Virus record (IMG/VR): IMGVR_UViG_3300037245_001320
Span: 64,001 to 128,000 of that record
DNA from: a virus
Direction: 5' to 3' (one strand)
Length of the DNA: 64,000 nucleotides
Shown: positions 37-63,405 of the stretch, in pieces
How positions within the stretch are numbered: the first letter of the stretch is position 1
Layout: every line of letters starts with the position of its first letter
The notes under the pieces: model-generated
The model's input: the letters and a program-made list of their open reading frames with translations, nothing else
Told to the model about the DNA's origin: nothing
Database searches by the model: none
Made by a program: the position numbers and the translations under genes

Positions 37-1518
37 TTGCAAAAAGAAAAAATTAAATTATTCAGTACCTTCACAGGAATAGGTAGCCCAGAGATGGCTA
101 TGAGAAACATAGGATTGGATTTTGAGGTCGTAGGTATATCAGAAGTAGATAAGTGGGCTTTACAAGCTTACGACGCTATCCATTGTGAGAATGAACCAGA
201 ACCAGAATACCCAACAAAAGAAGAAATGAAAGAATACTTCCTAGAAAAGAATATAGCTTACAACTTCTCCACAGGTAAATCAGAGATGCCTAGAAATGAA
301 AGAGATCTACAGAGATTATATAAAGCACATAAGAGAAGTCGAAATTTTGGGGATATCAGATTGATAGATGAACACAATCTACCTGAGTTTAACTTCTTCA
401 CATATAGCTTTCCATGCAAAAATATATCAGTTGCAGGTACACAATCAGGTTTAGATGAAGGATCAGAGACCCAATCATCCTTACTATGGGAGTGTAAAAG
501 ACTAATAGAAGTAAACAAACCTAAATACCTCTTAATGGAGAATGTTAAGAATCTTGTAGGTAAGAAGTTCAAACCACTATTAGAGTTATGGATAGAGACT
601 TTAGATGAACTAGGATATAAATCATCTTATAAAGTATTGAATGGTAAAGATTTTGGAGTACCTCAGAATAGAGAAAGAGTTATGATGATTTCTATTTTAG
701 ATGATGGAGAAGAAGATTATATTTTTCCAGAAGGACAACCACTAGATATATGTCTACATGATGTGTTAGAGCCTAAAGTAGATGAAAAGTACTATATCAA
801 CCCTGAGAAGTACAAGCATATAACAGCACCTTTACCCTCACAAGAAATAAGCTATTGTATTGATGCTAATTATCATAAAGGTATTTCTGTAGATCAATAT
901 ATCTTGAAGAGAAGAAGACAATTAGTTCAGGTAGGTAATCTAGAGAATAAGATTCATTCTAATACCAGAGTTTATGCTGAGGAGGGATTAAGTCCAACTT
1001 TAAATAGTATGAATGGAGGCAACAGACAACCTAAGATCCTAGTAGACGGATGTGCTATAAGAGGTAGGACTCCTAAGGGAGAAGGCAAGGATACCCCTGT
1101 AGAGCAGAGATTAGAGATAAACAAACATGAGGGTGTTTCTAACAGTATAACCACTGTAGGGAAGGATAGTCTTGTTTGTGAGACATCTTATGGGGGAAGA
1201 ATCGTAGGTAGAAATCCAGATAATCCCAAAAGCAGAGTAAAAGGACTACCTACTGTACAGATGTTAGAGTTGAATAAAAACCCTGATATCTCTAATACTC
1301 TGTCTACCGTTCAAAAAGATTCTGTGGTAATGAATACTCATAGGAGAGTTAGAAAATTAACACCTCTAGAATGTTGGAGACTAATGGGCTACACAGATGA
1401 AGATTTTGAGAAGAGCAGGGACAAGGGGTTTTTAGCAAACACAAAGTTATACGAGAGAGCAGGAAGAGGAATTGTAGTTCCTATGCTTGAAGCATTACTT
1501 ACAAATCTATTTTATTAA
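37..1518 (+). CDS. DNA (cytosine-5) methyltransferase
   Basis: FxGxG (FTGIG), catalytic FPC, ENV, PQNRER and C-terminal RKLTPLECWRLMGY motifs. The variable region has two copies of a GR..EQ/MLE.NK...SN.(I/L).TV.KDS repeat. TTG start after an AAGGAG SD. Confidence 0.92.
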   Translation: MQKEKIKLFSTFTGIGSPEMAMRNIGLDFEVVGISEVDKWALQAYDAIHCENEPEPEYPTKEEMKEYFLEKNIAYNFSTGKSEMPRNERDLQRLYKAHKRSRNFGDIRLIDEHNLPEFNFFTYSFPCKNISVAGTQSGLDEGSETQSSLLWECKRLIEVNKPKYLLMENVKNLVGKKFKPLLELWIETLDELGYKSSYKVLNGKDFGVPQNRERVMMISILDDGEEDYIFPEGQPLDICLHDVLEPKVDEKYYINPEKYKHITAPLPSQEISYCIDANYHKGISVDQYILKRRRQLVQVGNLENKIHSNTRVYAEEGLSPTLNSMNGGNRQPKILVDGCAIRGRTPKGEGKDTPVEQRLEINKHEGVSNSITTVGKDSLVCETSYGGRIVGRNPDNPKSRVKGLPTVQMLELNKNPDISNTLSTVQKDSVVMNTHRRVRKLTPLECWRLMGYTDEDFEKSRDKGFLANTKLYERAGRGIVVPMLEALLTNLFY

Positions 1519-1555: not shown

Positions 1556-1577
1556 TGCATTAATTAAAAAACATCAG

Positions 1578-1601
1578 AAAAAATTCCCACTATGCTATAA
1601 T
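1578..1601 (+). promoter_or_regulatory. Phage-specific promoter motif, copy 1 (AAAAAATTCCCACTATGCTATAAT)
   Basis: 24-bp motif found 7 times in the window, ending in extended -10 TGnTATAAT. Confidence 0.85.
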
Positions 1602-1606
1602 AGAGT

Positions 1607-1782
1607 TAAGAGGAAACTGAACCATCCTCAAAAACTACTTGACATTCTGATAAAAGTAAATTAAAATTGGAGAATATATAAGAACTCCATTTAAATGAAA
1701 ACAGGAGAATAATAAAGATTTCAGAATGGTCTTTAAAATATTCGGTTCAGACCTGTGGAAACTTAGATGGAGTTCTTTTTAT
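1607..1782 (+). ncRNA. Structured leader RNA, CI/C4-like, upstream of HNH gene
   Basis: Long stem 1680-1694/1763-1777 followed by a T-tract. Apical loop TCAGAATG is complementary to 1643-1650 and bulge GGTTCAG is complementary to 1617-1623. The same fold occurs at 52273-52430. Confidence 0.7.
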
Positions 1783-1793
1783 ATAATAGGTAA

Positions 1794-2855
1794 ATGAGTA
1801 AAGAAAAAGAGAAAGATGTTGTTAGTGTTGGGATGAAGAAGTGTAGAACTTGTGGGAAAGAGAAGGAATCTACTTTAGAGAACTTTCACGCAGGAAGAGG
1901 AAGCAAAGGAGGATTTCTACTTGATTGTAAAGAATGCAAGCGAGCCAAGGAAAGAGGAGACAAATATTATTTAGAACACTTTGAAAGAGAGGAAGACACT
2001 ACTCCAGCAGGATATAAGAAATGTAGTGATTGTGGGAAAAATAAAGAACAAACTGCTGAGTTTTTCCACAGAGACAAAGGATTTAAATCAGGCTTTAAGG
2101 CAAGATGTAAAGATTGTGAAAATATTATTAGAAACAAGCCAAAAAGAAAAGCCAACGATAAAAAACAAGCACAGAACCGCAACGCTAGACCAGAAGTAAG
2201 AATTCAGAGAAAGGAACAGAGAAAGGAATATAAAGCTAGACCAGAAGTTACGAAACACACTAAAGAGTATAATAAAGAATATTTATCTAGACCAGAAGTT
2301 AAGAAACATACTAAAGAGTATCATAAAGAATGGTATAAAAAACCAGAAAATAAAGAACGTAAAAAACAACAAGATAGGATAAATTCCCAAAAGCCTGAAA
2401 ATAAAGCTAAAAGAGCTGAAAGACGCAGAGAAAGATACAAAAATGAACCCTTATTTAGAATAAGGGTTAATCTTAGCAGAAATTTTTCCAGTCAGCTAAA
2501 AACACTTGGAACAAAAAAGCCCTCTGGAACTATGACTTATACAGGATGTACAAATGAAGAACTCTTAAAACATTTAAACACAGGCGAGTACACAATGAAG
2601 GACTACATGACAAACACCCCTTTGGAGACCTTCTTCGATTTTGATCACATAATACCTTCTCAGTATTTCTTAGATAGAATTAAAACAGATGAAAACGATA
2701 AAATAACAAAAGAGACACTTCCTTGGTTGCATAATTGGTGGAGCTACAGAAACATGAGGATTTGGCCTCATATACCCAATATTATTAAAGGAAAGAATAT
2801 AGATCAGGAGCTAATAGCTAAACATGGTATAGAAGATCTGTTAACTATAGATTAA
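1794..2855 (+). CDS. HNH endonuclease with two N-terminal CxxC zinc-finger repeats
   Basis: Two KKC..CG..K....F.........CK.C repeats, a Lys/Arg-rich linker with RPEV repeats, and a C-terminal DHIIP...NMRIWP...N..K motif. Confidence 0.8.
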   Translation: MSKEKEKDVVSVGMKKCRTCGKEKESTLENFHAGRGSKGGFLLDCKECKRAKERGDKYYLEHFEREEDTTPAGYKKCSDCGKNKEQTAEFFHRDKGFKSGFKARCKDCENIIRNKPKRKANDKKQAQNRNARPEVRIQRKEQRKEYKARPEVTKHTKEYNKEYLSRPEVKKHTKEYHKEWYKKPENKERKKQQDRINSQKPENKAKRAERRRERYKNEPLFRIRVNLSRNFSSQLKTLGTKKPSGTMTYTGCTNEELLKHLNTGEYTMKDYMTNTPLETFFDFDHIIPSQYFLDRIKTDENDKITKETLPWLHNWWSYRNMRIWPHIPNIIKGKNIDQELIAKHGIEDLLTID

Positions 2856-2859
2856 CTAT

Positions 2860-2886
2860 TAAGACACTCATTAGAAGTGTCTTTTT
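2860..2886 (+). terminator. Intrinsic terminator after the HNH gene
   Basis: AAGACACT-cattaga-AGTGTCTT followed by a T run. Confidence 0.65.
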
Positions 2887-4589: not shown

Positions 4590-5657
4590 ATGTCTAAACA
4601 AACCCTACAAGAAGAAACTTCAGACACACTCACAGCACACCAAATAGAAGTAAACAAGTTCGGTCAGTCACAGAGAAAGAAAATAATGGATGATATATCC
4701 CTACTACTAATAGATATAAAGACAACGCTCTTAAACGGCTCTGAGGAGGTTACTTTAGGAGAGTTGCGGGATATGATCAGAACAGCCAATCGGATGTTTA
4801 AGGAAGGCTTCAGAGAGATTAGAAACAGTGTTGAAGAAGGAGCCTTTGAACTCTTACAGGTAGAACTTACTGGGCAGACAAAATTACTCCAAGAATTGAT
4901 AGATGATTATGAAGTGCAGTACACAGTTAGAGAACCTTCACATGTATTAGCAACCAGAGCTTTAAAAGATCTCCCTATAGAAGATTTAACATTTGCAACA
5001 TGGTTTGACATATGGGAGAAAAAAACTAATGGTAGAATGAAATCAGGATTGTTCTCAGAACACTCAGATGATAAATCCAGAACAGATTTAGTACAAGATG
5101 TGTTTGGTAGAGGTAAGGATCCATTTGTATTTCAAACATTTTTAGGATCACATAGAGATATGAACGGATTACTAATTTCTATTGTTGATGGAACTAATTC
5201 AATAAGTACCAGTTCTATCGCAGATTCCAATTCAGGTATTATTGAAGCAGTTATCTGGAATAGCTGCTTATGCAGCACAACTTGCGCTCGCTGCGCTTCA
5301 CTTCACGGAGCAATTCGATGGATAAATGGAGTAGATGAAACAGACGGAAATGAAATTCCATTGCATCCCAATTGTTTGTGCTTTTGGACATATAAGTACA
5401 AAAACGTAAAATCGATGGATGCGAAAGTACCCAAAACAGCACGTTCAGCAATAAACTCCAACGAAGTGCCAAAAAAATTCCCACTATGGTATAATGGAGT
5501 TAGTCAGAAGAGACGAATAGAATTATTTGGGAGGACAAAAGTGAAAATGATAGATTCAGGAGAAATAAAAGTTTCACAATTACTCACAAAAAAGAATCGA
5601 AGAGTGTACACTCTCGATGAACTTAAACAAAAGGGTTATAAAATACCCACAAAATAA
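4590..5657 (+). CDS. Minor head protein (SPP1 gp7 / Mu gpF-like)
   Basis: TC..C..L.G and PLHPNC motifs; follows the portal. Confidence 0.85.
   Translation: MSKQTLQEETSDTLTAHQIEVNKFGQSQRKKIMDDISLLLIDIKTTLLNGSEEVTLGELRDMIRTANRMFKEGFREIRNSVEEGAFELLQVELTGQTKLLQELIDDYEVQYTVREPSHVLATRALKDLPIEDLTFATWFDIWEKKTNGRMKSGLFSEHSDDKSRTDLVQDVFGRGKDPFVFQTFLGSHRDMNGLLISIVDGTNSISTSSIADSNSGIIEAVIWNSCLCSTTCARCASLHGAIRWINGVDETDGNEIPLHPNCLCFWTYKYKNVKSMDAKVPKTARSAINSNEVPKKFPLWYNGVSQKRRIELFGRTKVKMIDSGEIKVSQLLTKKNRRVYTLDELKQKGYKIPTK
5472..5495 (+). promoter_or_regulatory. Phage-specific promoter motif, copy 3, inside the minor head CDS
   Basis: AAAAAATTCCCACTATGGTATAAT, encoding KKFPLWYN, about 200 nt upstream of scaffold and MCP. 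Confidence 0.8.
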
Positions 5658-19400: not shown

Positions 19401-22279
19401 CTGATATGGAAAATAACACACAATTATACAGAAAAGGTTTAACCTCCCAAGAGGTTGTACAACTAACAAGTGTACCCAGCAAATCTCCTAAGTTCCTTGA
19501 TGACTTCTATGCGACATATATAAATTACCTAGATGGAAATAAGCTTTACAAAATAAATCACATGGATGGCACAGAGAATAAGGTAATAATAGATCATGCA
19601 GTTACATCTTACGGTTTATATGGGAATTACTGTATATGGTCAGGTGCAGTTGCACAGAAAACATATATAAAGCAATTCCTCGGAGTAGATAGTACTACAA
19701 AGGGAGATGTGTATGATGATACAATGTTATATAATATTGTTGCCTCATCCCCAGCAAACTGGTTTGTCACAGGATACACAGCAGTAGCAGTACATATTGT
19801 AAGTGCAAAACTACAAAGTTACGTAGGGGTTACCCCCTTATATGGTGATGTAGTAAAACATTCTTTAAGTGATGATGGACAATACACTTTAATGAATTCC
19901 TTAGGGCAGGTGTATTATGTGCCATTAGTAGACAAAGATTTAACAGAGGTGTTAGAGACGGAAACACGTTCAGAAGAAGTAGTAATTATTGGAGATTTCC
20001 GTTACCTTAGTAATACAATAACCAATATAAACCCTACGGATATTACCAATGCTGTAGTAGGGGATAAGGTAAATAGTAGTTATGTCGAAGATGATGTGAC
20101 AATTACGTTTATTGGATCAAATTACTTGGTTATGACAGACTATGCTTTACAAACAGTACCCAATGCTAATATAGGAATAACAGGTACAAGATTATACTTA
20201 AACGCAAATAGAGTTGTGGTACCAGGGACAATTACAGCAGGCTTATTAGAAACAAATGCTATAAATAGTATAGATCGAGTAGCATCAGGAAATCCTAATG
20301 CAGGGCAACAATTATACCAACATGATTTAAGTAATGGAATAGAAAGACAGTACAGAGAGAATGGGGACTTAATAAGACAGTTTACTCCTGCGGATGGTTT
20401 ATGGTTAAGAGAAGGAATAGAAATTGGAGGAACAGCTCCAGGAGGAGGAGTAGTCGTTCCTCCCACACCAGAATTTACAGACACTGTTAACCAAGTATTT
20501 AGACAAGCTAATGCCCCTTATGGAGAAGGTGAAATAGAGAACGACATTTGGTATGATACAGATGACGGGTCAACATATGCATACAAGGCTAGTGTATGGG
20601 AACCCACAGCATACACCTTACCTCAATTAGATGCTTTAGGAATAGATGCTGGAACAGTAAATACTTATAGTATATTAGGTAATGTAGATGTAGCCGTTCC
20701 AGCAGATGCATTATTTACAGACACTCTATCATTCCTTTACACAATAGCAACAGGTGTACCTGATACAGGTGGAAGTAATCCAACACCAGAATCAGGAGGA
20801 TTTAAACAAGGAGATGTTTGTAAGGTTACAGATTCAGGATCTGCTTATGTATATGATGGTTCTGCATGGCAACAGACATCGGATATTGCCGCAGATTATT
20901 TTGCTAATGGGGGATCAGCAGGGTACACGGGAACATCGTCATGGGGTATAGACTCTAATGGAAAGTTAACAGCTTCTGGAGCAGACATACAAGGAAACAT
21001 TGAAGCTGATTCTGGGTACTTTAAAGGGGTCGTAGAAGTTATATCTACAGACTTGAAAACTAGAACTGTTGTGGATAATGGTGATATTTCCTTTTATACA
21101 AGAATCCTCAACACTGATCCTTGGATTCCTATTGGTAGTTTAGGAGGGGGCTATGATGGAACAGTTCCAGTATTAATTGCACCACAAGACTTTAGAATAG
21201 GGGACATGACTATTGGTAGAGGTAAAGGAAATATTGATAGTAATGTTGCTTTAGGTGCTAATGCTTTAGACAGCAACACATCAGGGGAAAACAATGTGGC
21301 TATAGGAAGAGGAGCCTTAAGTGATAATGCATCAGGAACTAACAACGTGGGGGTAGGTATTCATGCATTATTACGTAACACAACAGGCGATTTTAACGCT
21401 GTACTAGGTGCCTTTGCCCTAAGTGATAACACAGAAGGGTATAACAATATTGCAGTAGGTAATAGTGCACTACATCAGAATACAACAGGGCATGGGAATG
21501 TTGCAATAGGAACAGACGCACTTGAAGGAAATATCACAGGACTAGATAACGTAGCCATAGGAACAAATGCACTTAAGGCAAATACCAATGGACTAGATAA
21601 TGTTGCTATAGGCGTTGCTGCCATGATAGATAATACAGAAGGTTATTTTAACATATCCCTCGGAAGTTTATCTTTACGGCACAATACTATAGGATTTGAT
21701 AATATTGCTATAGGGGGACATGCATTAAGAGATAACACAGAAGGTTTTGCCAATGTGGCCGTAGGAGGGGACGCACTATTAAAATCCACAGGGGATTTTA
21801 ATACAGGTATAGGGCACATTGCATTAGCTGAACATGTTTCTGGAGACTATAACATAGCCCTTGGGTTTGGAGCAGAATGTTCTACAACAACTTCCTCGGG
21901 AGAGTGTGTATTAGGCGATGGCAATATAACAGTACTTCGCTGTAATCAACAAACCATATCAGCACTATCTGATGGAAGAGATAAGGTAGATGTAAAAGAT
22001 AGTTTATTTGGTCTAGACTACATAATGTCTGTAAGACCTGTAGATTTTTTATGGAAAACACGAGAGGGTAATGTTAAAGATGGCACAAGGGAAGTAGGGT
22101 TTATTGCCCAAGAGCTAAAAGCGATAGAAGAAAAGTTTAATGCCTCTCATGTAAAGTCTGTTTTATCTGAAAACCCAGAAAGGCTAGAGGCATCATATGC
22201 TTCACTAATACCAATAATGGTAAAAGCAATACAAGAACAACAAAAGGAAATAGAAGAACTTAAGAGGCGAATCGTTTAA
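16394..22279 (+). CDS. Central tail tip/fibre protein (gpI-gpJ-like fusion) with beta-helical repeats and S74 chaperone
   Basis: N-terminal ubiquitin-like domain, PVPVILG and TSNPA..ID...L..W..FC gpJ motifs, 14-aa NVAIG..AL..NT.G repeats, and C-terminal SDGRDK...GFIAQE...coiled coil. Confidence 0.88.
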   Translation: MSIRVITQTNPFSTERKINELDDVKTVNGILRKLKINKKDIPLAISVNGVVTEDFSLKVKENDLVLVKIIPSGDRGTAISRVLGGLQVVAGIILIATGLGAGGGVALIISGTTTFFGPEIASWAENATDKDNKVKLTGPSTSDVSYLKGGKNAYGQNQPVPVILGKHRYYPYQIAYQYTNLELDAKVTPVVSNPEVVEDTLRKANGQLNQLRNRHDDYETMISDVRTKIADLYSPGGTTWVAILDTRTDLYALKSIPELNRDSHLSTAIGFFTTGAPVSEAYGSTFVSSAYNQKLHQVLLWGHKDIEILPNTLKRAETLVTNTALTDTSVVHNSLSNYGEKAQKHVAIYKVLKKFSTTTGATPYSILLPGKIKDATMVFIFGLFFAKNKDDEYLTPKIKVSWALYEVPDSGPDVLVTTKTETFSGGDVHKAEQQEPSGINLTIPVTLTTTKQYKITIQREFDDMQDEDSTVYNPHVSAFESVVALSHILCTSDLDVMTPYAKTTYNYSSVVTQDDTIDGDIDSFNAIVQTNVPNYNGVGTGSSAWNTLELTSNPASMYLYILQGAPNKRQVDDSEIDWAALEDWWQFCEDNNFECNIVLINPGSISNILKTICITGRATLNTTNNYSVLVDKERDFPTQLITNLNAFNMSLNRSFNEPVHGIYFSFIDAGEESDYQAVERAVYLDGYNENGTDGKIKATKLLSQQLLGVTSATQVGQLGKFMINAYNRRVETVSVSMDIEYLLALPGDLVKFSYDQLLTSTARGRITEIINNGSGETETILLDTDVTMEAGKSYAVVIRLANGDFVEEGATQSIPVNTIVGTFDYVILSSPQVTSVAVGDLVAFGEAATVTGDYLVQSITPSDNLSATLRLVNYAEEIYSPDPLGPWESPYGKQSDFGASPILESTYTLDAIGNLTDANAKRLDTLASPSIKRAIRTQTPSATYVREDVLEMALSNNYLYFIDKEDLSIKRTTILPNAATETIVTTPCKELAVTADDRFLLYTDMENNTQLYRKGLTSQEVVQLTSVPSKSPKFLDDFYATYINYLDGNKLYKINHMDGTENKVIIDHAVTSYGLYGNYCIWSGAVAQKTYIKQFLGVDSTTKGDVYDDTMLYNIVASSPANWFVTGYTAVAVHIVSAKLQSYVGVTPLYGDVVKHSLSDDGQYTLMNSLGQVYYVPLVDKDLTEVLETETRSEEVVIIGDFRYLSNTITNINPTDITNAVVGDKVNSSYVEDDVTITFIGSNYLVMTDYALQTVPNANIGITGTRLYLNANRVVVPGTITAGLLETNAINSIDRVASGNPNAGQQLYQHDLSNGIERQYRENGDLIRQFTPADGLWLREGIEIGGTAPGGGVVVPPTPEFTDTVNQVFRQANAPYGEGEIENDIWYDTDDGSTYAYKASVWEPTAYTLPQLDALGIDAGTVNTYSILGNVDVAVPADALFTDTLSFLYTIATGVPDTGGSNPTPESGGFKQGDVCKVTDSGSAYVYDGSAWQQTSDIAADYFANGGSAGYTGTSSWGIDSNGKLTASGADIQGNIEADSGYFKGVVEVISTDLKTRTVVDNGDISFYTRILNTDPWIPIGSLGGGYDGTVPVLIAPQDFRIGDMTIGRGKGNIDSNVALGANALDSNTSGENNVAIGRGALSDNASGTNNVGVGIHALLRNTTGDFNAVLGAFALSDNTEGYNNIAVGNSALHQNTTGHGNVAIGTDALEGNITGLDNVAIGTNALKANTNGLDNVAIGVAAMIDNTEGYFNISLGSLSLRHNTIGFDNIAIGGHALRDNTEGFANVAVGGDALLKSTGDFNTGIGHIALAEHVSGDYNIALGFGAECSTTTSSGECVLGDGNITVLRCNQQTISALSDGRDKVDVKDSLFGLDYIMSVRPVDFLWKTREGNVKDGTREVGFIAQELKAIEEKFNASHVKSVLSENPERLEASYASLIPIMVKAIQEQQKEIEELKRRIV
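21240..21870 (+). repeat. Coding tandem repeats with a ~42-nt / 14-aa unit (N.A(I/V)G..AL..NT.G)
   Basis: About 15 degenerate units visible in the protein and the DNA. Confidence 0.8.
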
Positions 22280-33454: not shown

Positions 33455-33843
33455 AAGCCTCCCATCCTTTTGTTATTTCCATTAGCATATTCTAATAACC
33501 TTCCGAGCTCTTCACTAATGGGTAAGAACCAATCTAAGGGAAAACTATTGTGTCTCCTCTGTTGTAAATCTTCTCCTTCATAATTATAAATACCCTCCAG
33601 TACACCAAACCTATCTTTAGATATATGCTTTACCTTTGCATAGAAGGGTTCTCCAGCAGAGGGAATATGTACCTGACACCATTCCCCAACAGATACTTCT
33701 TTCTTACTCAATGCTATATTACTATTTACTTTTATTCTTTCCTGAATAGCTTCGATGTTCTCAAAAGGATATCTAATCCCATTCTCAACAATGTTCTTAA
33801 TCTTCTCTAGATCTTCATTGATCTGCTTCTTTACTTTTTGCAT
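33451..33843 (-). CDS. Hypothetical protein
   Basis: ORF in the operon, with SD. Confidence 0.6.
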   Translation of the reverse strand: MQKVKKQINEDLEKIKNIVENGIRYPFENIEAIQERIKVNSNIALSKKEVSVGEWCQVHIPSAGEPFYAKVKHISKDRFGVLEGIYNYEGEDLQQRRHNSFPLDWFLPISEELGRLLEYANGNNKRMGGL

Positions 33844-34826
33844 ATTATCTCTCCTACGTTCCCTATTATTTTAAGTGTCTCCACTTCTTTTAAAATCTCT
33901 TCTAAATTATGTTCAACAACGAGAGAATAATCTATAAAACAATATTTTTCATGATTTTCTTTTTTTGGCCAAATCCTCATATTTGTAGGACAGTTACATA
34001 ATTGCATCAATCTCTTAATCTCATTTTTATGTTTTTTCTCAGATAAAGTTAAAATAATGTCTCTAAAATAACTTAAAGGTATGATGTGATCTATGTGGTA
34101 TTTATTGGAATCTTTATTATAGTCCTTCCAAGTATACAATCCTTTATTGAATTGTTTTATATAATCCTCCCAAGAATATCCATTATCATAAATAATATCT
34201 TTAGTATGAAAGTCTTCCTGATTCTGTAAGTGTCTCCGTATACGCTTACAGAATTTCCTTAATTTCCTATTCATCTTGCCTTTTGGTGAATTGTTATAGG
34301 CTTTTGTGGTCCTCCTTCCTTGCTCAGACTCCCGATAACCTTTTGCTTTTTTCTTCCCTTCCTCTGTTTGTGCTCTTTTCCTGTTTCTTTCTTTGACTTC
34401 AGGCCGAGAATGATACTCTTTAGCATACTCTGGACAATATTTGGCAGGTGTTGTTAATTTGTATAGGTTTTCCCATGTTTGGTGTAATTCTTTATTGTTT
34501 TTATGGTCATAGAATAACAGTAGTGCATTTGTGCTTTTTCGTTCTTCTGTTGAAAGTAACTTAAATCGTCCTCCTTTTTTGAGCAATATTGCATGCATAT
34601 CTAGTAAAGAAAGCTTCTGCATACCTTTACGAGCACACATAATACAATTAGATCTGTTGTTTAGTACTTCAGAAACGGTGTTATTCCAACTATGTCCGCA
34701 CCCATCAACCAAACACTCCCACTCCAGTACTTCTCCCGCTATCTTATATTCCTCAGAGACTAATTTTATATTTCGTCCCTCCAACCTAGTCTCAATTTCT
34801 TTTTTTGTTGTTAATTTTCTTCCCAA
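33831..34826 (-). CDS. HNH endonuclease with N-terminal zinc ribbon
   Basis: W.C....CGH.W...C..C ribbon, RPEV linker and HIDHIIP...NMRIWP..EN..K (paralogous to 1794-2855). Confidence 0.8.
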   Translation of the reverse strand: MGRKLTTKKEIETRLEGRNIKLVSEEYKIAGEVLEWECLVDGCGHSWNNTVSEVLNNRSNCIMCARKGMQKLSLLDMHAILLKKGGRFKLLSTEERKSTNALLLFYDHKNNKELHQTWENLYKLTTPAKYCPEYAKEYHSRPEVKERNRKRAQTEEGKKKAKGYRESEQGRRTTKAYNNSPKGKMNRKLRKFCKRIRRHLQNQEDFHTKDIIYDNGYSWEDYIKQFNKGLYTWKDYNKDSNKYHIDHIIPLSYFRDIILTLSEKKHKNEIKRLMQLCNCPTNMRIWPKKENHEKYCFIDYSLVVEHNLEEILKEVETLKIIGNVGEIICKK

Positions 34827-34862
34827 TTATTTTACTTCCTTTTGTTCTGTTATATTAAATTT

Positions 34863-34895
34863 AAAAAGGCAGAAGATAAAACTACCTCTGCCTCT
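34863..34895 (-). terminator. Terminator-like hairpin between promoter copy 6 and the HNH gene
   Basis: AGAGGCAGAGG-tagttttat-CTTCTGCCTTTTT on the minus strand. Confidence 0.6.
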
Positions 34896-34896
34896 T

Positions 34897-34920
34897 ATTA
34901 TACCATAGTGGGAATTTATT
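34897..34920 (-). promoter_or_regulatory. Phage-specific promoter motif, copy 6
   Basis: AATAAATTCCCACTATGGTATAAT (one mismatch) on the minus strand. Confidence 0.8.
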
Positions 34921-51057: not shown

Positions 51058-52251
51058 TTACGTCAATCCTTCTTTCTTAATTTTCTGCTTTTCTTTATAC
51101 TCATCTTTAAGTTCTTGTACTTTCTTATCTAGCTCTTTTTGTGTGTACGGGACTAGTTGTGTGAAGCATTCCGTATAGCCTGCAAAATACTTCTTAGGCT
51201 CGTACTTGTATTCTTTATGTAATTCGTGTAGTGCGTTTTCGATGTATGTAGCATTATATTTATTTGTTTCTATTTTCTTTACAACTGTGTAACTATAAGG
51301 TAAGTTTTGTCCTGAAAAACGGTATGTTACTTTCCCCGAAGTAATCCCAATTTTCTTAAAACGTTCTTGGGAGTTGAACAGAGTAATGAAGTATACAGTT
51401 GCTTTACTTAGTAACCATTCTTTCTTTTTATGCTCTGCTGTGGGAATAGTGTAGGGTGCATTATTTGGTGGATGGCAACAGGAACAGATAGGATAACAGG
51501 AAAGAACGTTCCAACTTATATCTCTATTAAATCCACATTTCTTACATGTGAACCTTACAGTAGATATAGCTGTCACATCATAAGGAATAGTCGTACACTG
51601 CCAATTACTATAAGCTTGTTCTGTTAATCTATACATTAACAATTCCTTACTCATATTTAATGTATTACTGCATCTAGGGCATAACTGTTTTCGATGAAAC
51701 ATGTTTGTCCACAAAGGTTTCCACACATAGTTACAAGTAGCACATTTACAATGAATGGGTATATAGCAATCCACATATTCTTTAGATAATAATTGTATAG
51801 AAGCATAAAAAGGATGAGCTAATTTTTCAAGTATTCTTTTCTGTGACCAATGCTCCTGTTGAGAACAACGACTACAATTTGAGGATCCTGTTTTTATATA
51901 AGTCCAAGCTATATCCCATATATAACCATCAATAGTACATTGCCATTTCATTTCCTCAGGAGAGTACACCTCTGATAGTCTTTTTATAGGTAATTTATAT
52001 TCGTCTATATACTTATCTATTAAGGGAATTGTCCACCGAGTAACTTTACTGGTAATAGTATTCCATGTTTCTTCTGTTATTCTATAGTATGTTGCTTTTT
52101 GGGGTTTTTGCCTCTTTGTCCAGTACGTATCTTTTACGATCTTATGCTTAGCCTTATCTAGCTTTTCCAATCTTCTTATAGCAGCTAATAAATTACTATG
52201 GTCTCTTCCTGTTTCCTTTGCTAAATCTAATGATGATTTTAGTTCTTCCAT
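51058..52251 (-). CDS. Rha-like N-terminal domain + zinc-ribbon repeats + GIY-YIG/T5orf172-like nuclease
   Basis: SSLDLAKETGRDHSNLLAAIR (Rha pattern), three W.C..C..W...C..C repeats, and VYFI..KIGIT..E..LH..YEPKKYFAGYTECF (paralogous to 11565). Confidence 0.75.
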   Translation of the reverse strand: MEELKSSLDLAKETGRDHSNLLAAIRRLEKLDKAKHKIVKDTYWTKRQKPQKATYYRITEETWNTITSKVTRWTIPLIDKYIDEYKLPIKRLSEVYSPEEMKWQCTIDGYIWDIAWTYIKTGSSNCSRCSQQEHWSQKRILEKLAHPFYASIQLLSKEYVDCYIPIHCKCATCNYVWKPLWTNMFHRKQLCPRCSNTLNMSKELLMYRLTEQAYSNWQCTTIPYDVTAISTVRFTCKKCGFNRDISWNVLSCYPICSCCHPPNNAPYTIPTAEHKKKEWLLSKATVYFITLFNSQERFKKIGITSGKVTYRFSGQNLPYSYTVVKKIETNKYNATYIENALHELHKEYKYEPKKYFAGYTECFTQLVPYTQKELDKKVQELKDEYKEKQKIKKEGLT

Positions 52252-52272
52252 TCTTATTTCCTTTTCCCAATT

Positions 52273-52434
52273 AAAAAAGCTTACTAATAAATTCCCTCTA
52301 AGTTGACCCGAAATACAATACCAGTGTTTCTTGCATTTCTCTTAAAGGGATTTTTACTAATAAGCTCTGTTTGAGTTCACTATGATTTTTCACTGGATTT
52401 CTTAAAGAAGGGTCAAGTTCTTTTTATATCTTCT
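52273..52434 (-). ncRNA. Structured leader RNA, CI/C4-like, upstream of the Rha-nuclease
   Basis: Stem 52341-52366/52278-52302 + T-tract and inner stem GAAATGCAA/TTGTATTTC. Loop CACTGG is complementary to 52391-52396 and bulge GGGTCAA is complementary to 52410-52416. Confidence 0.72.
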
Positions 52435-52440
52435 TCCTCT

Positions 52441-52464
52441 ATTATACCATAGTGGGAATTTTTT
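52441..52464 (-). promoter_or_regulatory. Phage-specific promoter motif, copy 7
   Basis: AAAAAATTCCCACTATGGTATAAT on the minus strand. Confidence 0.85.
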
Positions 52465-52478
52465 TGAGGTGTTGTAAG

Positions 52479-52511
52479 AAAAACCCTCTCAGATGTGTGC
52501 AGAGAGGGTTT
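52479..52511 (-). terminator. Intrinsic terminator
   Basis: AAACCCTCTC...GAGAGGGTTTTT; same hairpin family as 29910 and 30729. Confidence 0.7.
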
Positions 52512-52515
52512 AGAA

Positions 52516-53004
52516 TTATTTACTTTTTGTTTTCTTTGATTTTTTAACTCTTGGCTTCGGTTCTACAAAATCTATAGGTACCAGATATTCTTTTTTTACA
52601 TTCTCTTCATATTCCCAAGCTGTAATCTTACATAAAAGTTTGTATAGGGTATCCCATGCAGGAGTTGTTTTTGCTTTCTTTTGCATAATATGAGCAGTCT
52701 CATGGCATTGAACACATAGAATAATAATATCCTCAGGCTCTTTATCTGTTCCCATCCGGTCATATTTAACATGGTGGCACTGCATCATTAATAATCGCTT
52801 CTTATCTCCTGCTTTTTTCTTCTTTTTAACAGAACCATTTTTCCAAATACTCCAGCGTTTTCTTTTACAAATAGCACAAACAACATCAGGGTTATCTAAC
52901 AAGGACTTCGATCTACGCTTCCACCAGCTTGAGGACATGTAATTTTTATGTGTAATTTGTTTCTTATCCTCAGACATATATCTTCTCTTCAAAAATAGGA
53001 ACAA
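52516..53004 (-). CDS. Small McrA-like HNH protein
   Basis: Y..S.WW, CAIC and HH..Y......E...D...LC..CH...H; start may be the MSED methionine. Confidence 0.75.
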   Translation of the reverse strand: MFLFLKRRYMSEDKKQITHKNYMSSSWWKRRSKSLLDNPDVVCAICKRKRWSIWKNGSVKKKKKAGDKKRLLMMQCHHVKYDRMGTDKEPEDIIILCVQCHETAHIMQKKAKTTPAWDTLYKLLCKITAWEYEENVKKEYLVPIDFVEPKPRVKKSKKTKSK

Positions 53005-63330: not shown

Positions 63331-63405
63331 TACCTATAGATGGGCTTGAACCATCGACCCTCTGGATATGAGCCAGATACTCTAAACCAACTGAGCTATA
63401 TAGGT
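63331..63405 (-). tRNA. tRNA with CAT anticodon (elongator Met or Ile2); CCA not encoded
   Basis: ACCTATA/TATAGGT acceptor, GCTC/GAGT D-stem, TCTGG-CTCATAT-CCAGA anticodon arm, GATGG-TTCAAGC-CCATC T-arm. Confidence 0.9.

What the first reader, a model, noticed from the sequence alone, without database searches (positions are those of the whole stretch)
1578..2855. RNA-gated nuclease cassette I: promoter + CI/C4-like structured leader + HNH nuclease
Seen: after promoter copy 1 the ~190-nt leader has the order A-B-[stem(B' loop, A' bulge)]-T-tract-ATG. A=CTGAACC (1617-1623) is complementary to the 3' bulge GGTTCAG (1744-1750). B=CATTCTGA (1643-1650) is complementary to the apical loop TCAGAATG (1721-1728). 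The stem is AAGAACTCCATTTAA/TTAGATGGAGTTCTT, then ACAGG/CCTGT, a single A opposite the bulge, then GAATA/TATTC and TAAAGAT/GTCTTTA. The same topology with different sequence precedes a different nuclease at 52.3 kb. Known: P4 CI, N15 CA and P1 C4 RNAs are stem-loops whose loops or bulge pair with targets in their own leader to shut off kil/antirepressor genes. Inference: a portable module in which a small RNA attenuates a nuclease, acting like an RNA antitoxin or sequence-specific immunity. An RNA cofactor for the nuclease is a less likely alternative.
Basis: partly seen in the sequence, partly recalled or inferred. Interest (0 to 1): 0.88.

Follow-up and report, generated by a model that had tools for sequence, protein, structure and literature searches.

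The report
Self-pairing leader RNA before phage nucleases
An uncultured 154-kb phage and its relatives place a roughly 170-nt folded RNA between a late promoter and selfish nuclease genes. Two 5' elements of this RNA base-pair with the loop and a bulge of its own terminator hairpin. It is an undescribed RNA family that most likely throttles nuclease expression, much as the P1 c4 and P4 CI immunity RNAs control their genes.

Summary
The layout is: late promoter, 5' hairpin with A in its loop, B, long hairpin with B' in the apical loop and A' in a 3' bulge, T-tract, start codon. It occurs four times in this phage genome (two in the window) and four more times in related metagenomic phage contigs. 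A/A', B/B' and the stems differ in every copy but stay complementary (Fisher P about 5e-22). One external leader is a clear homologue of the window copy, with compensatory changes in A/A', B/B' and the basal stem. Seven of eight downstream genes are nuclease-like, from three different families.

No Rfam family matches, including C4 and HEARO. Unlike P1 c4, the window copies have no second target downstream; two relatives have a B-like site between the ribosome-binding site and the AUG. One relative carries the same nuclease gene without the module, so the module is separable.

My best reading is a terminator-based attenuator whose hairpin is addressed to its own 5' end, in cis and probably in trans. 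Whether pairing raises or lowers expression is not known. An RNA cofactor role is unlikely. First readers flagged the other copies, and follow-up agents reported analogous nuclease-guarding leaders in other phages.

The parts
1572..1601 (+). Late-type promoter, copy 1: an A-run, TTCCCAC, and an extended -10 (TGCTATAAT). The transcription start is inferred near 1608.
   Evidence: There are 12 exact copies of the 18-nt core in the genome and 7 exact (8 with up to 3 mismatches) in the window, against 0.23 expected. All read towards downstream genes.
1610..1630 (+). 5'-terminal hairpin (GAGGA/TCCTC) that displays element A (CTGAACC, 1617-1623) in its loop.
   Evidence: Folds. The equivalent hairpin with A in the loop is present in all 8 leaders. 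Four of its five pairs show changes on both sides.
1643..1650 (+). Element B (CATTCTGA), complementary to the apical loop.
   Evidence: 8-nt match, P = 0.003 alone. B lies 13-20 nt after A in all 8 leaders.
1639..1667 (+). Possible internal sigma-70-type promoter, TTGACA-17-TAAAAT. It would start transcripts near 1674. Those transcripts would lack A, B and the 5' arm of the candidate antiterminator.
   Evidence: 11 of 12 consensus match, P about 0.001 in shuffles. The same hexamers and spacing occur in leader L049. They are absent from the other six leaders.
1668..1689 (+). Candidate antiterminator hairpin: TGGAG (1668-1672) pairs with CTCCA (1685-1689) inside the 5' arm of P1.
   Evidence: P = 0.034 in L1 alone, Fisher P = 5e-6 over six leaders. 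It co-varies with P1 in homologue L046 (TAGTG/CACTA). It is absent from L2 and L049.
1680..1780 (+). Long hairpin P1-P4 with B' (1721-1728) in the apical loop and A' (1744-1750) in the 3' bulge, ending in the T-run 1776-1780. This is a predicted intrinsic terminator and the antisense-like part of the RNA.
   Evidence: In the model-fitted alignment, 24 of 37 nested pairs change on both sides and 97.7% of cells are paired, against 37-54% when the 3' partners are slid.
1794..2855 (+). 353-aa Zn-ribbon protein with 'RPEV' repeats and a C-terminal His-Me-finger (HNH/EndoVII-like) domain. It looks like a free-standing homing endonuclease.
2861..2883 (+). Terminator that closes the cassette. Promoter copy 2 follows (core 2928-2945) and drives the portal gene.
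52441..52466 (-). Late-type promoter of cassette II.
52252..52436 (-). Leader II: A TTGACCC 52416-52410, B CCAGTG 52396-52391, hairpin 52366-52278, B' 52326-52321, A' 52309-52303, T-run 52278-52273.
   Evidence: Found by model R2 although it was not in the training set (36 bits, E = 0.003-0.004).
51058..52251 (-). 397-aa protein with a Rha-like N-terminus, Zn ribbons and a T5orf172 domain (phrog_681 'endonuclease').

Best explanation
The finding is one copy of an undescribed family of phage leader RNAs, about 170 nt from promoter to T-tract, that gates selfish nuclease genes.

A late promoter starts a transcript whose first element is a small hairpin showing a 6-8-nt sequence A in its loop. 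A second 6-9-nt sequence, B, follows 13-20 nt later. A long hairpin of 79-104 nt comes next and ends in a U-tract. This hairpin is an intrinsic terminator placed before the nuclease ribosome-binding site. It carries the exact complements of B in its apical loop and of A in a 3' bulge 11-15 nt further on.

I propose that this two-point docking (loop to bulge, strand to loop) decides how many late transcripts pass the terminator, or are processed, into the nuclease gene. It would act within one molecule. Once terminated leader RNAs pile up on the replicating phage DNA, it would also act in trans on nascent leaders. That would keep nuclease output low and independent of gene dosage.

Shown: the architecture, its recurrence, the covariation, the T-tract, and the link to nuclease genes. 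Inferred: termination at the T-tract, the effect of docking and its sign, and any action in trans.
For: - Eight complete leaders share one architecture: four in this genome and four in other contigs.
- A/A' and B/B' are complementary in every leader although the sequences differ. P is 5e-5 to 6e-3 per leader, and Fisher P is 5e-22.
- L046 is a sequence homologue of the window leader. Its core is conserved while A/A', B/B' and P1 have changed compensatorily.
- L3 and L049 differ by a paired change: TTCGCAT/ATGCGAA against TTCGCAC/GTGCGAA.
- A covariance model built from the window copy alone recovers four other copies. The second model recovers two copies it was not trained on.
- Nested helices co-vary strongly.
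- G-U pairs and the T-tract fit an RNA read from the sense strand.
- Cognate A+B duplexes are -17 to -22 kcal/mol, against a mean of -3.5 to -7.4 for non-cognate pairs. The four copies in one genome are therefore orthogonal.
- Every leader ends in a T-run 10-30 nt before a Shine-Dalgarno sequence.
- Seven of eight downstream genes are nuclease-like, from three families.
- Within this genome, promoter copies before structural genes lack the leader.
- Two leaders also carry a B-like site between the SD and the AUG, as P1 c4 does with b2 (P < 0.0005 and P = 0.02).
- Five of eight have a hairpin that competes with the terminator stem.
- T4-type phages are known to restrain homing-endonuclease genes with terminators and hairpins (PMC2988022).
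- c4 and CI are precedents for a leader-encoded RNA that pairs with sites upstream of itself (PMC2864571 supplement; PMC4825925).
Against: - There are no expression data.
- The terminator stems are A-U-rich at the base, and L4 has a poor T-run (TTTCTT), so termination efficiency is unknown.
- In six of eight leaders, including both window copies, no downstream target exists. A and B occur together nowhere else in the genome.
- Pairing within one molecule should out-compete pairing in trans. The pairing could therefore be a fixed tertiary fold rather than a switch.
- The ribosome-binding sites are not sequestered in nested folds.
- The competing antiterminator-like hairpin is weak (-1.5 to -6.8 kcal/mol) and is missing in L2 and L049.
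- The orthologous nuclease gene in L015 has no leader, so the module is dispensable.
Confidence: 0.55

Rival explanations
1. It is a fixed tertiary fold without a switch. The 5' elements dock on the hairpin only to build a compact, nuclease-resistant RNA. That RNA would act as a constitutive insulator or terminator and as a 5' stabiliser, letting a mobile endonuclease cassette sit between essential late genes without disturbing them. Nothing would be regulated and nothing would act in trans.
For: - A and B lie on the same molecule, upstream of their partners, so cis docking is kinetically favoured.
- Six of eight leaders have no other target.
- The cassette is bracketed by terminators, and the next gene has its own promoter copy.
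- A simpler arrangement, late promoter plus short terminator, precedes another possible HNH gene at 34826-34914 on the minus strand.
Against: - A plain terminator needs no bipartite kissing, and other terminators in the phage are short hairpins.
- Five of eight leaders have a competing hairpin.
- Two have a b2-like site at the translation start, and two have an internal promoter that would make a hairpin-only RNA.
- Displaying A in a 5' hairpin loop is typical of antisense recognition.
Confidence: 0.22
2. It is a stand-alone small RNA gene, from promoter to terminator, whose job is not control of the neighbouring nuclease. Possible roles are a decoy or a regulator of a host or competitor-phage RNA. 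It would travel with homing endonuclease genes only by linkage.
For: - Promoter, about 170 nt and a T-tract make a complete sRNA gene.
- The L015 orthologue of the nuclease gene lacks the module.
- Leader types and nuclease families are shuffled. L049 combines an L3-like A and an L1-like B-linker with a phrog_681 nuclease.
Against: - The variable recognition sequences are complementary to each other within the RNA, leaving no free, conserved seed for an outside target.
- All eight copies sit directly in front of a gene, with an SD 10-30 nt after the T-tract, and seven of these genes are nuclease-like.
- Two copies can pair with that gene's own translation start.
Confidence: 0.13
3. It is an RNA cofactor or guide for the nuclease, in the way omega RNA (HEARO) serves IscB.
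For: The RNA lies immediately 5' of nuclease genes, as omega RNAs do.
Against: - The same RNA architecture precedes three unrelated nuclease families: the His-Me N1 type, an HTH-HNH type, and the phrog_681/T5orf172 type.
- These proteins carry their own Zn-ribbon or HTH DNA-binding modules.
- The variable segments are occupied by each other rather than free as a guide.
- There is no Rfam HEARO or omega hit.
- An orthologous nuclease exists without the RNA.
Confidence: 0.04
4. It is a DNA-level element, with nested inverted repeats serving as a recombination, homing or cruciform site rather than as an RNA.
For: All the pairings are also inverted repeats in DNA. The cassettes look mobile.
Against: - G-U pairs occur in stems and in B/B' of L038. 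They would be C-A mismatches on the other strand.
- Position and orientation relative to the promoter and the T-tract are fixed.
- A/A' and B/B' cross the main stem, which a DNA cruciform cannot accommodate.
- Reverse-strand hits of the models score far lower.
Confidence: 0.03

Closest known systems
P1/P7 c4 antisense RNA with its a1/b1 and a2/b2 sites (Rfam C4, RF01695; c4-a1b1 motif of Weinberg et al. 2010, PMC2864571)
   Same: - Two short recognition elements (a', b') in unpaired parts of a folded RNA are complementary to two sites (a1, b1) upstream in the same transcript.
- The upstream sites are presented by small hairpins.
- The RNA lies in the leader of the gene it controls.
- Two relatives of the window leader also have a b2-like site at the ribosome-binding region.
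   Different: - No covariance-model match.
- c4 is a multi-stem RNA: P1 closes a junction with P2 and a further hairpin.
- Here there is one long hairpin that is itself followed by the U-tract.
- The window copies have no a2/b2.
- The genes controlled are late-promoter homing-endonuclease-like genes of a large, apparently lytic phage. They are not the icd/ant antirepressor operon of a temperate phage.
- RNase P processing is unknown here.
Satellite phage P4 CI RNA (seqB pairing with seqA and seqC; premature transcription termination)
   Same: A leader-derived RNA pairs with a complementary site upstream of itself in the same operon, and the outcome is premature termination of that operon (as summarised in PMC4825925).
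   Different: - P4 has one recognition sequence with two targets, one upstream and one downstream. Here there are two recognition sequences, each with one upstream target.
- P4 CI is made by processing and maintains lysogenic immunity.
- No sequence or fold similarity was detected.
Antisense-RNA-mediated transcription attenuation of plasmids pT181, pIP501 and pAMbeta1 (from my own knowledge)
   Same: Kissing contact with a nascent leader decides between a pre-emptor (antiterminator) and a terminator hairpin, which gives copy-number-compensating control. Here five of eight leaders have a competing hairpin and all have a terminator.
   Different: In those plasmids the regulator is a countertranscript from the opposite strand. 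Here the complementary elements lie on the same strand, inside the terminator hairpin.
Control of T4-family homing endonuclease genes (I-TevI-III, segB, mobE; review PMC2988022)
   Same: Selfish nuclease genes are held down by several layers: late promoters, RNA hairpins in the leader, and intrinsic terminators near the 5' end.
   Different: The T4 hairpins sequester the ribosome-binding site and contain the late promoter. Here the SD is not sequestered and the promoter lies upstream of the whole structure. Long-range kissing with covarying specificity has not been described for T4.
HEARO / IscB omega RNA
   Same: A structured RNA lies 5' of an HNH-type nuclease gene.
   Different: There is no model match, no IscB/TnpB-type protein and no free guide segment, and the RNA is associated with unrelated nuclease families.

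Membership tests
C4 antisense RNA (Rfam RF01695) / c4-a1b1 | Match to the family covariance model at or near the gathering score | tested here: not met
   No hit on the whole window at gathering thresholds. No C4-related hit at E <= 5-10 on four leader regions.
C4 antisense RNA (Rfam RF01695) / c4-a1b1 | Two elements (a', b') complementary to upstream sites a1, b1 in the same transcript | tested here: met
   A/A' and B/B' are present in 8 of 8 leaders.
C4 antisense RNA (Rfam RF01695) / c4-a1b1 | Second target pair a2, b2 downstream, overlapping the ribosome-binding site of the regulated gene | tested here: not met
   None in the window copies or in six of eight leaders. A b2-like site alone occurs in L037b and L038.
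C4 antisense RNA (Rfam RF01695) / c4-a1b1 | Context: icd/ant antirepressor operon of a temperate phage or plasmid | tested here: not met
   Downstream genes are nuclease-like. Neighbours are methylase, portal and terminase genes.
P4 CI RNA | One sequence (seqB) complementary to both an upstream (seqA) and a downstream (seqC) site | tested here: not met
   There are two separate elements, each with one upstream partner, and no downstream copy in the window leaders.
Intrinsic-terminator attenuator | Hairpin immediately followed by a U-tract between promoter and gene | tested here: met
   A T-run directly follows P1 in all 8 leaders, though it is weak in L4. Function was not tested.
Intrinsic-terminator attenuator | Mutually exclusive antiterminator structure | tested here: inconclusive
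   Linker-to-P1 hairpin in 5 of 8 leaders. Fisher P = 5e-6 over the first six. It co-varies between L1 and L046. It is absent in L2 and L049.
T4-type RBS-sequestering hairpin with internal late promoter | SD/AUG paired inside the hairpin, with the late promoter inside the structure | tested here: not met
   Mean unpaired probability of the SD is 0.49-0.95. The late promoter lies upstream of the whole leader.
HEARO / omega RNA | Covariance-model match and an IscB/TnpB-type nuclease downstream | tested here: not met
HNH / His-Me-finger nuclease (ORF 1794-2855) | Pfam HNH-type domain above threshold | tested here: not met
   No HNH hit for this protein or for its 10 aligned relatives. Three of its weaker database homologues are recorded with PF01844 and PF14279.
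HNH / His-Me-finger nuclease (ORF 1794-2855) | Conserved D-H ... N ... N catalytic pattern in a C-terminal domain | tested here: met
   D284, N320, N329 and K332 are invariant and H285 is nearly invariant in 11 relatives. PHROG 'endonuclease VII' covers this domain in paralogues and in the bona fide HNH protein of cassette 4. There is a marginal PDB hit, 7p9k (E = 0.049). The fold prediction failed.

The most novel reading that the evidence does not exclude
The leaders form a set of orthogonal, self-addressed kissing RNAs that act in trans. Terminated or internally promoted hairpin RNAs would accumulate as the phage genome replicates. Each would bind only the two 5' elements of nascent leaders with its own address and switch them to termination, or in some members block the start codon. 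This would be a plasmid-like, copy-number-compensating RNA brake, and possibly a cross-phage immunity, dedicated to individual homing endonuclease genes. It would be carried as a portable promoter-plus-RNA module.
Probability: 0.25. Interest if true: 0.85.

Novelty: new variant of a known kind. Interest (0 to 1): 0.72.

Why it matters
It is still poorly understood how phages tolerate many selfish nuclease genes, and T4-family phages are the main model. This finding adds an RNA family whose tertiary or antisense contacts are strongly supported by covariation. Eight different 'addresses' share one scaffold, and the family is linked specifically to nuclease genes in an uncultured phage lineage.

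If the contacts gate termination, the family extends the c4/CI principle in three directions. It moves from lysogenic immunity to control of mobile nucleases in a lytic programme. It offers a natural set of orthogonal RNA parts. It also makes testable the idea that homing-endonuclease dosage is buffered by RNA.

Follow-up agents in this scan reported analogous self-pairing leaders before nucleases in other phages, so the principle may be general.

Tried and rejected
- Nucleotide search of cultured phages and tblastn of the nuclease against them found no match. The portal is at most 33% identical to any cultured phage, so there are no annotated relatives.
- Promoter-pattern scans returned mostly an unrelated phage group that shares the 18-mer by chance. 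The metagenome scan gave two unrelated contigs.
- P0004 and P0041 contigs returned no DNA.
- MAFFT alignments of leaders were not structurally in register, so a single-sequence covariance model was used instead.
- The count of structure pairs could not be applied to A/A' and B/B' because these unpaired columns are out of register in the model alignment. Per-sequence tests were used instead.
- Second targets (a2/b2) were sought in the genome and at the translation starts. None was found for the window copies.
- Sequestration of the ribosome-binding site was rejected.
- An internal sigma-70-like promoter as a general feature was rejected, since only L1 and L049 have one. Strong sigma-70 matches are only about 1.7-fold enriched genome-wide.
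- Structure prediction of the nuclease C-terminal domain gave pLDDT 47, so no fold search was run.
- Chance was rejected.
Full report
**What is there**

The window is bases 64001-128000 of a 154,018-bp IMG/VR viral contig (32.7% G+C, about 90% complete).
- an 18-nt promoter core at 1584-1601, with an extended -10 (TGCTATAAT) and an upstream A-run;
- a 5-bp hairpin at 1610-1630 whose loop holds A (1617-1623);
- B at 1643-1650;
- a 99-nt hairpin at 1680-1778 made of four helices;
- B' in its apical loop (1721-1728) and A' in a 3' bulge (1744-1750), opposite a single A;
- a T-run at 1776-1780;
- the ATG at 1794.

RNAfold returns this hairpin as the minimum-energy fold. The copy at 52.3 kb on the minus strand has the same order of parts with unrelated letters.

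**More than chance**

The promoter core has 12 exact copies in the genome. Four of these are followed by leaders of this kind: the two window copies, one at genome position 53526 (+) just after the terminase gene, and one at 150377 (-).

For each leader I shuffled the upstream 70 nt and asked how often both complements reappear in the right order. The answer was 0 to 9 times in 20,000.

A descriptor scan of the whole genome, both strands, examined 105 long single hairpins followed by a T-tract. Only true leaders passed. In 233 kb of unrelated loci there was one weak false positive among 79 candidates.

**Relatives and covariation**

The lineage has no cultured relatives. The portal is at most 33% identical to any phage in the cultured collection. 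Metagenomic contigs with portals 46-62% identical exist.

Four further complete leaders were found in such contigs: L038:1577-1750, L046:3645-3840, L037:6013-6203 and L049:6866-7077. A fifth is cut by a contig end (L037:1-41). Each has its own A/A' and B/B'. Fisher's combined P over the eight leaders is 5e-22.

L046 is the key case. Its hairpin core aligns with the window copy, sharing long identical blocks. A/A' has nevertheless changed from CTGAACC/GGTTCAG to TTCGACC/GGTCGAA. B/B' has changed from CATTCTGA/TCAGAATG to TCCACTA/TAGTGGA. The basal stem has also been replaced compensatorily. Leaders L3 and L049, both sitting after the terminase gene, differ by a paired change in A/A'.

A covariance model built from the window copy alone found L046 (88 bits), L037 (49), L4 (34) and L3 (33). 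A second model built from those five found two leaders it had not been trained on, leader II of the window (36 bits) and L049 (43 bits). It found no other site in the genome.

On the model-fitted alignment, 24 of 37 nested pairs show changes on both sides and 97.7% of cells pair. Only 37-54% pair when the 3' partners are slid. That alignment leans towards the structure, but the slid controls are clear.

G-U pairs and the T-tract place the structure on the sense-strand RNA.

**Constant geometry**

The following hold in all eight leaders:
- A sits in the loop of a 5'-terminal hairpin that begins a few bases after the inferred transcription start.
- B follows 13-20 nt later.
- The hairpin spans 79-104 nt.
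- A' lies 11-15 nt 3' of B'.

The two receptor sites are therefore separated by a stem of roughly 9-13 bp, about one helical turn, and the two 5' elements can reach both at once. Cognate A+B duplex energies are -17 to -22 kcal/mol. Non-cognate combinations average -3.5 to -7.4, so the four copies in one genome are mutually orthogonal.

**Gene context**

The genes downstream of the leaders are as follows:
- Window ORF 1794-2855 has Zn ribbons, a basic repeat region, and a C-terminal domain with an invariant D-H...N...N pattern. Pfam does not call HNH. PHROG 'endonuclease VII' covers the N-terminal part here, and it covers the C-terminal domain in paralogues and in the clear HTH-HNH protein of cassette 4.
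- Cassette II encodes a protein with a Rha-like N-terminus, Zn ribbons and a T5orf172 domain (phrog_681).
- L049 also encodes a phrog_681 protein.
- L046, L037 and L3 encode members of the family of the window nuclease.
- The L038 gene is unassigned.

So seven of eight genes are nuclease-like, from three families. Within this genome, promoter copies before portal, scaffold and other structural genes lack the leader.

The module is separable. In L015 the orthologue of the window nuclease sits in the same place, before the portal promoter, but directly follows the upstream terminator with no promoter and no leader. In L045 and L048 the terminase and portal genes have no nuclease-like gene between them. 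Leader and nuclease types are shuffled as well. L049 combines an L3-like A and an L1-like B-linker with a cassette-II-type nuclease.

**Comparison with known RNAs**

Rfam 15 gives nothing at gathering thresholds on the window. It gives no relevant hit at E up to 5-10 on four leader regions, so C4, c4-related motifs and HEARO do not match.

The P1/P7 c4 system has a' and b' pairing with upstream a1/b1 and with downstream a2/b2 at the ribosome-binding site of the regulated operon. The a1/b1 region forms small hairpins (PMC2864571 supplement). P4 CI pairs with seqA upstream and seqC downstream and causes premature termination (PMC4825925).

The present RNA shares the upstream half of this logic. 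For the window copies I found no second site, neither downstream nor anywhere else in the genome. Two relatives do have a B-like site exactly between the SD and the AUG: L037, P < 0.0005, and L038, P = 0.02 before correction for 14 tests. That is c4-like and suggests that the apical loop can act as an antisense element.

The fold differs from c4. It is one long hairpin that is itself followed by the U-tract, not a junction of several stems.

**Mechanistic clues**

1. The hairpin plus T-run lies between promoter and SD in all copies. Transcripts therefore either stop as an RNA of about 170 nt or read through into the nuclease gene.
2. In five of eight leaders the linker just upstream can pair with the middle of the 5' arm of P1. 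This would be a weak competitor of the terminator. Fisher P is 5e-6 over the first six leaders. It co-varies between the window copy and L046, and it is absent in leader II and L049.
3. The window copy and L049 share a perfect TTGACA, a 17-nt spacer and TAAAAT overlapping B. This would start a transcript just upstream of the hairpin that lacks A, B and the competitor arm, leaving A' and B' free. The other six leaders lack it.
4. The SD is not sequestered in nested folds, so the T4 type of translational hairpin does not apply.

**Reading**

The best-supported explanation is a terminator-based attenuator whose hairpin is addressed to the 5' end of its own leader through two kissing contacts. I give 0.55 to the view that this gates read-through, processing or translation of the nuclease gene. 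Within that, trans action by accumulated leader RNA is plausible but unproven, and I give about 0.25 to the full orthogonal, dosage-compensating brake. The sign of the effect cannot be derived from sequence.

The rivals are:
- a fixed tertiary fold that only insulates and stabilises (0.22);
- an sRNA with an unrelated function that is merely linked to the nucleases (0.13);
- an RNA cofactor of the nuclease (0.04);
- a DNA-level element (0.03).

The evidence for and against each is listed in its own section.

**Novelty**

This is not a member of any curated RNA family. It works like, but is not homologous to, c4 and CI, and its gene class and phage life style are different. I rate it a new variant of a known kind.

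First readers of this scan had flagged three of the four copies in this genome (e1-5765255, e1-5765256, e1-5765265). Follow-up agents reported analogous self-pairing leaders before nuclease genes in two unrelated phages (e1-3398758, e1-5659144). I did not test the notes on other phages.

Noticed in passing
L003:196-464 and L003:1069-1346 (genome 52221-52489 and 53094-53371, upstream of the window): Two strong Rfam group I intron hits (83 and 75 bits) inside the terminase large-subunit region. Relatives L045, L048 and L049 have an uninterrupted TerL.
   Followed up: partly
window 34826-34914 (-) and ORF 33831-34826 (-): A late-promoter copy is followed at once by a short G+C-rich hairpin with a T-run, then a 331-aa ORF. 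The ORF has sub-threshold treble-clef Zn-finger (DUF4379) and HNH_4/HNH_5 hits. This may be a simpler 'promoter, terminator, nuclease' arrangement without A/B elements.
   Followed up: partly
genome 49977 (+) leader (14 kb before the window) and L046:763-900: The leader of the small-terminase gene is conserved between this phage and a relative. It contains a CTGAG...CTCAG hairpin and a conserved block just before the start codon. It may be a separate regulatory RNA or a translational operator.
   Followed up: no
window 1639-1667 and L049:6914-6942: A perfect TTGACA, a 17-nt spacer and TAAAAT are conserved in two otherwise diverged leaders. The variable B core occupies the spacer. This conservation pattern fits a real internal promoter better than an RNA constraint.
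   Followed up: partly
L015:5784-7202 (-), L015:7160-7260: The orthologue of the window nuclease in a related contig has no promoter or leader. It starts right after the upstream gene's terminator. The promoter-plus-leader module was therefore either inserted in this phage or lost in that one.
   Followed up: yes
window 5478-5495: One late-promoter copy lies inside the 3' end of the 355-aa head-morphogenesis-like ORF (4590-5657), where it encodes KKFPLWYNG, and precedes the scaffold-like gene. Relatives L014, L015, L046 and L047 share this arrangement, and L045 has a close variant of the motif there, so the promoter is embedded in coding sequence.
   Followed up: partly
L045, L046, L047, L049: Relatives use variant forms of the promoter's upstream element: TGACCACTATGG, TTCCCTCTATGA and TTCCCCCTCTGTGC. 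The extended -10 is kept. This suggests a phage-specific activator or sigma factor that co-evolves with its site.
   Followed up: no
window 52516-53004 (-): A 162-aa protein with a Pfam HNH hit (21.8 bits against a cut-off of 21.4) lies directly upstream of cassette II. A hairpin terminator at about 52470-52505 separates the two, so two nuclease genes sit side by side.
   Followed up: no
window 37-1518 (+): A 493-aa C5-cytosine DNA methyltransferase (Pfam, E = 3e-60) lies immediately upstream of cassette I. L049 has a homologous methylase before its portal gene, and the leader-nuclease cassette there lies after TerL.
   Followed up: no
window 21262-21765: Six diverged 45-nt repeat units spaced at multiples of 51 nt lie inside a coding region, probably a repetitive fibre or tail protein.
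   Followed up: no
window 63331-63405 (-): A phage-encoded tRNA gene (Rfam tRNA, 66 bits).
   Followed up: no
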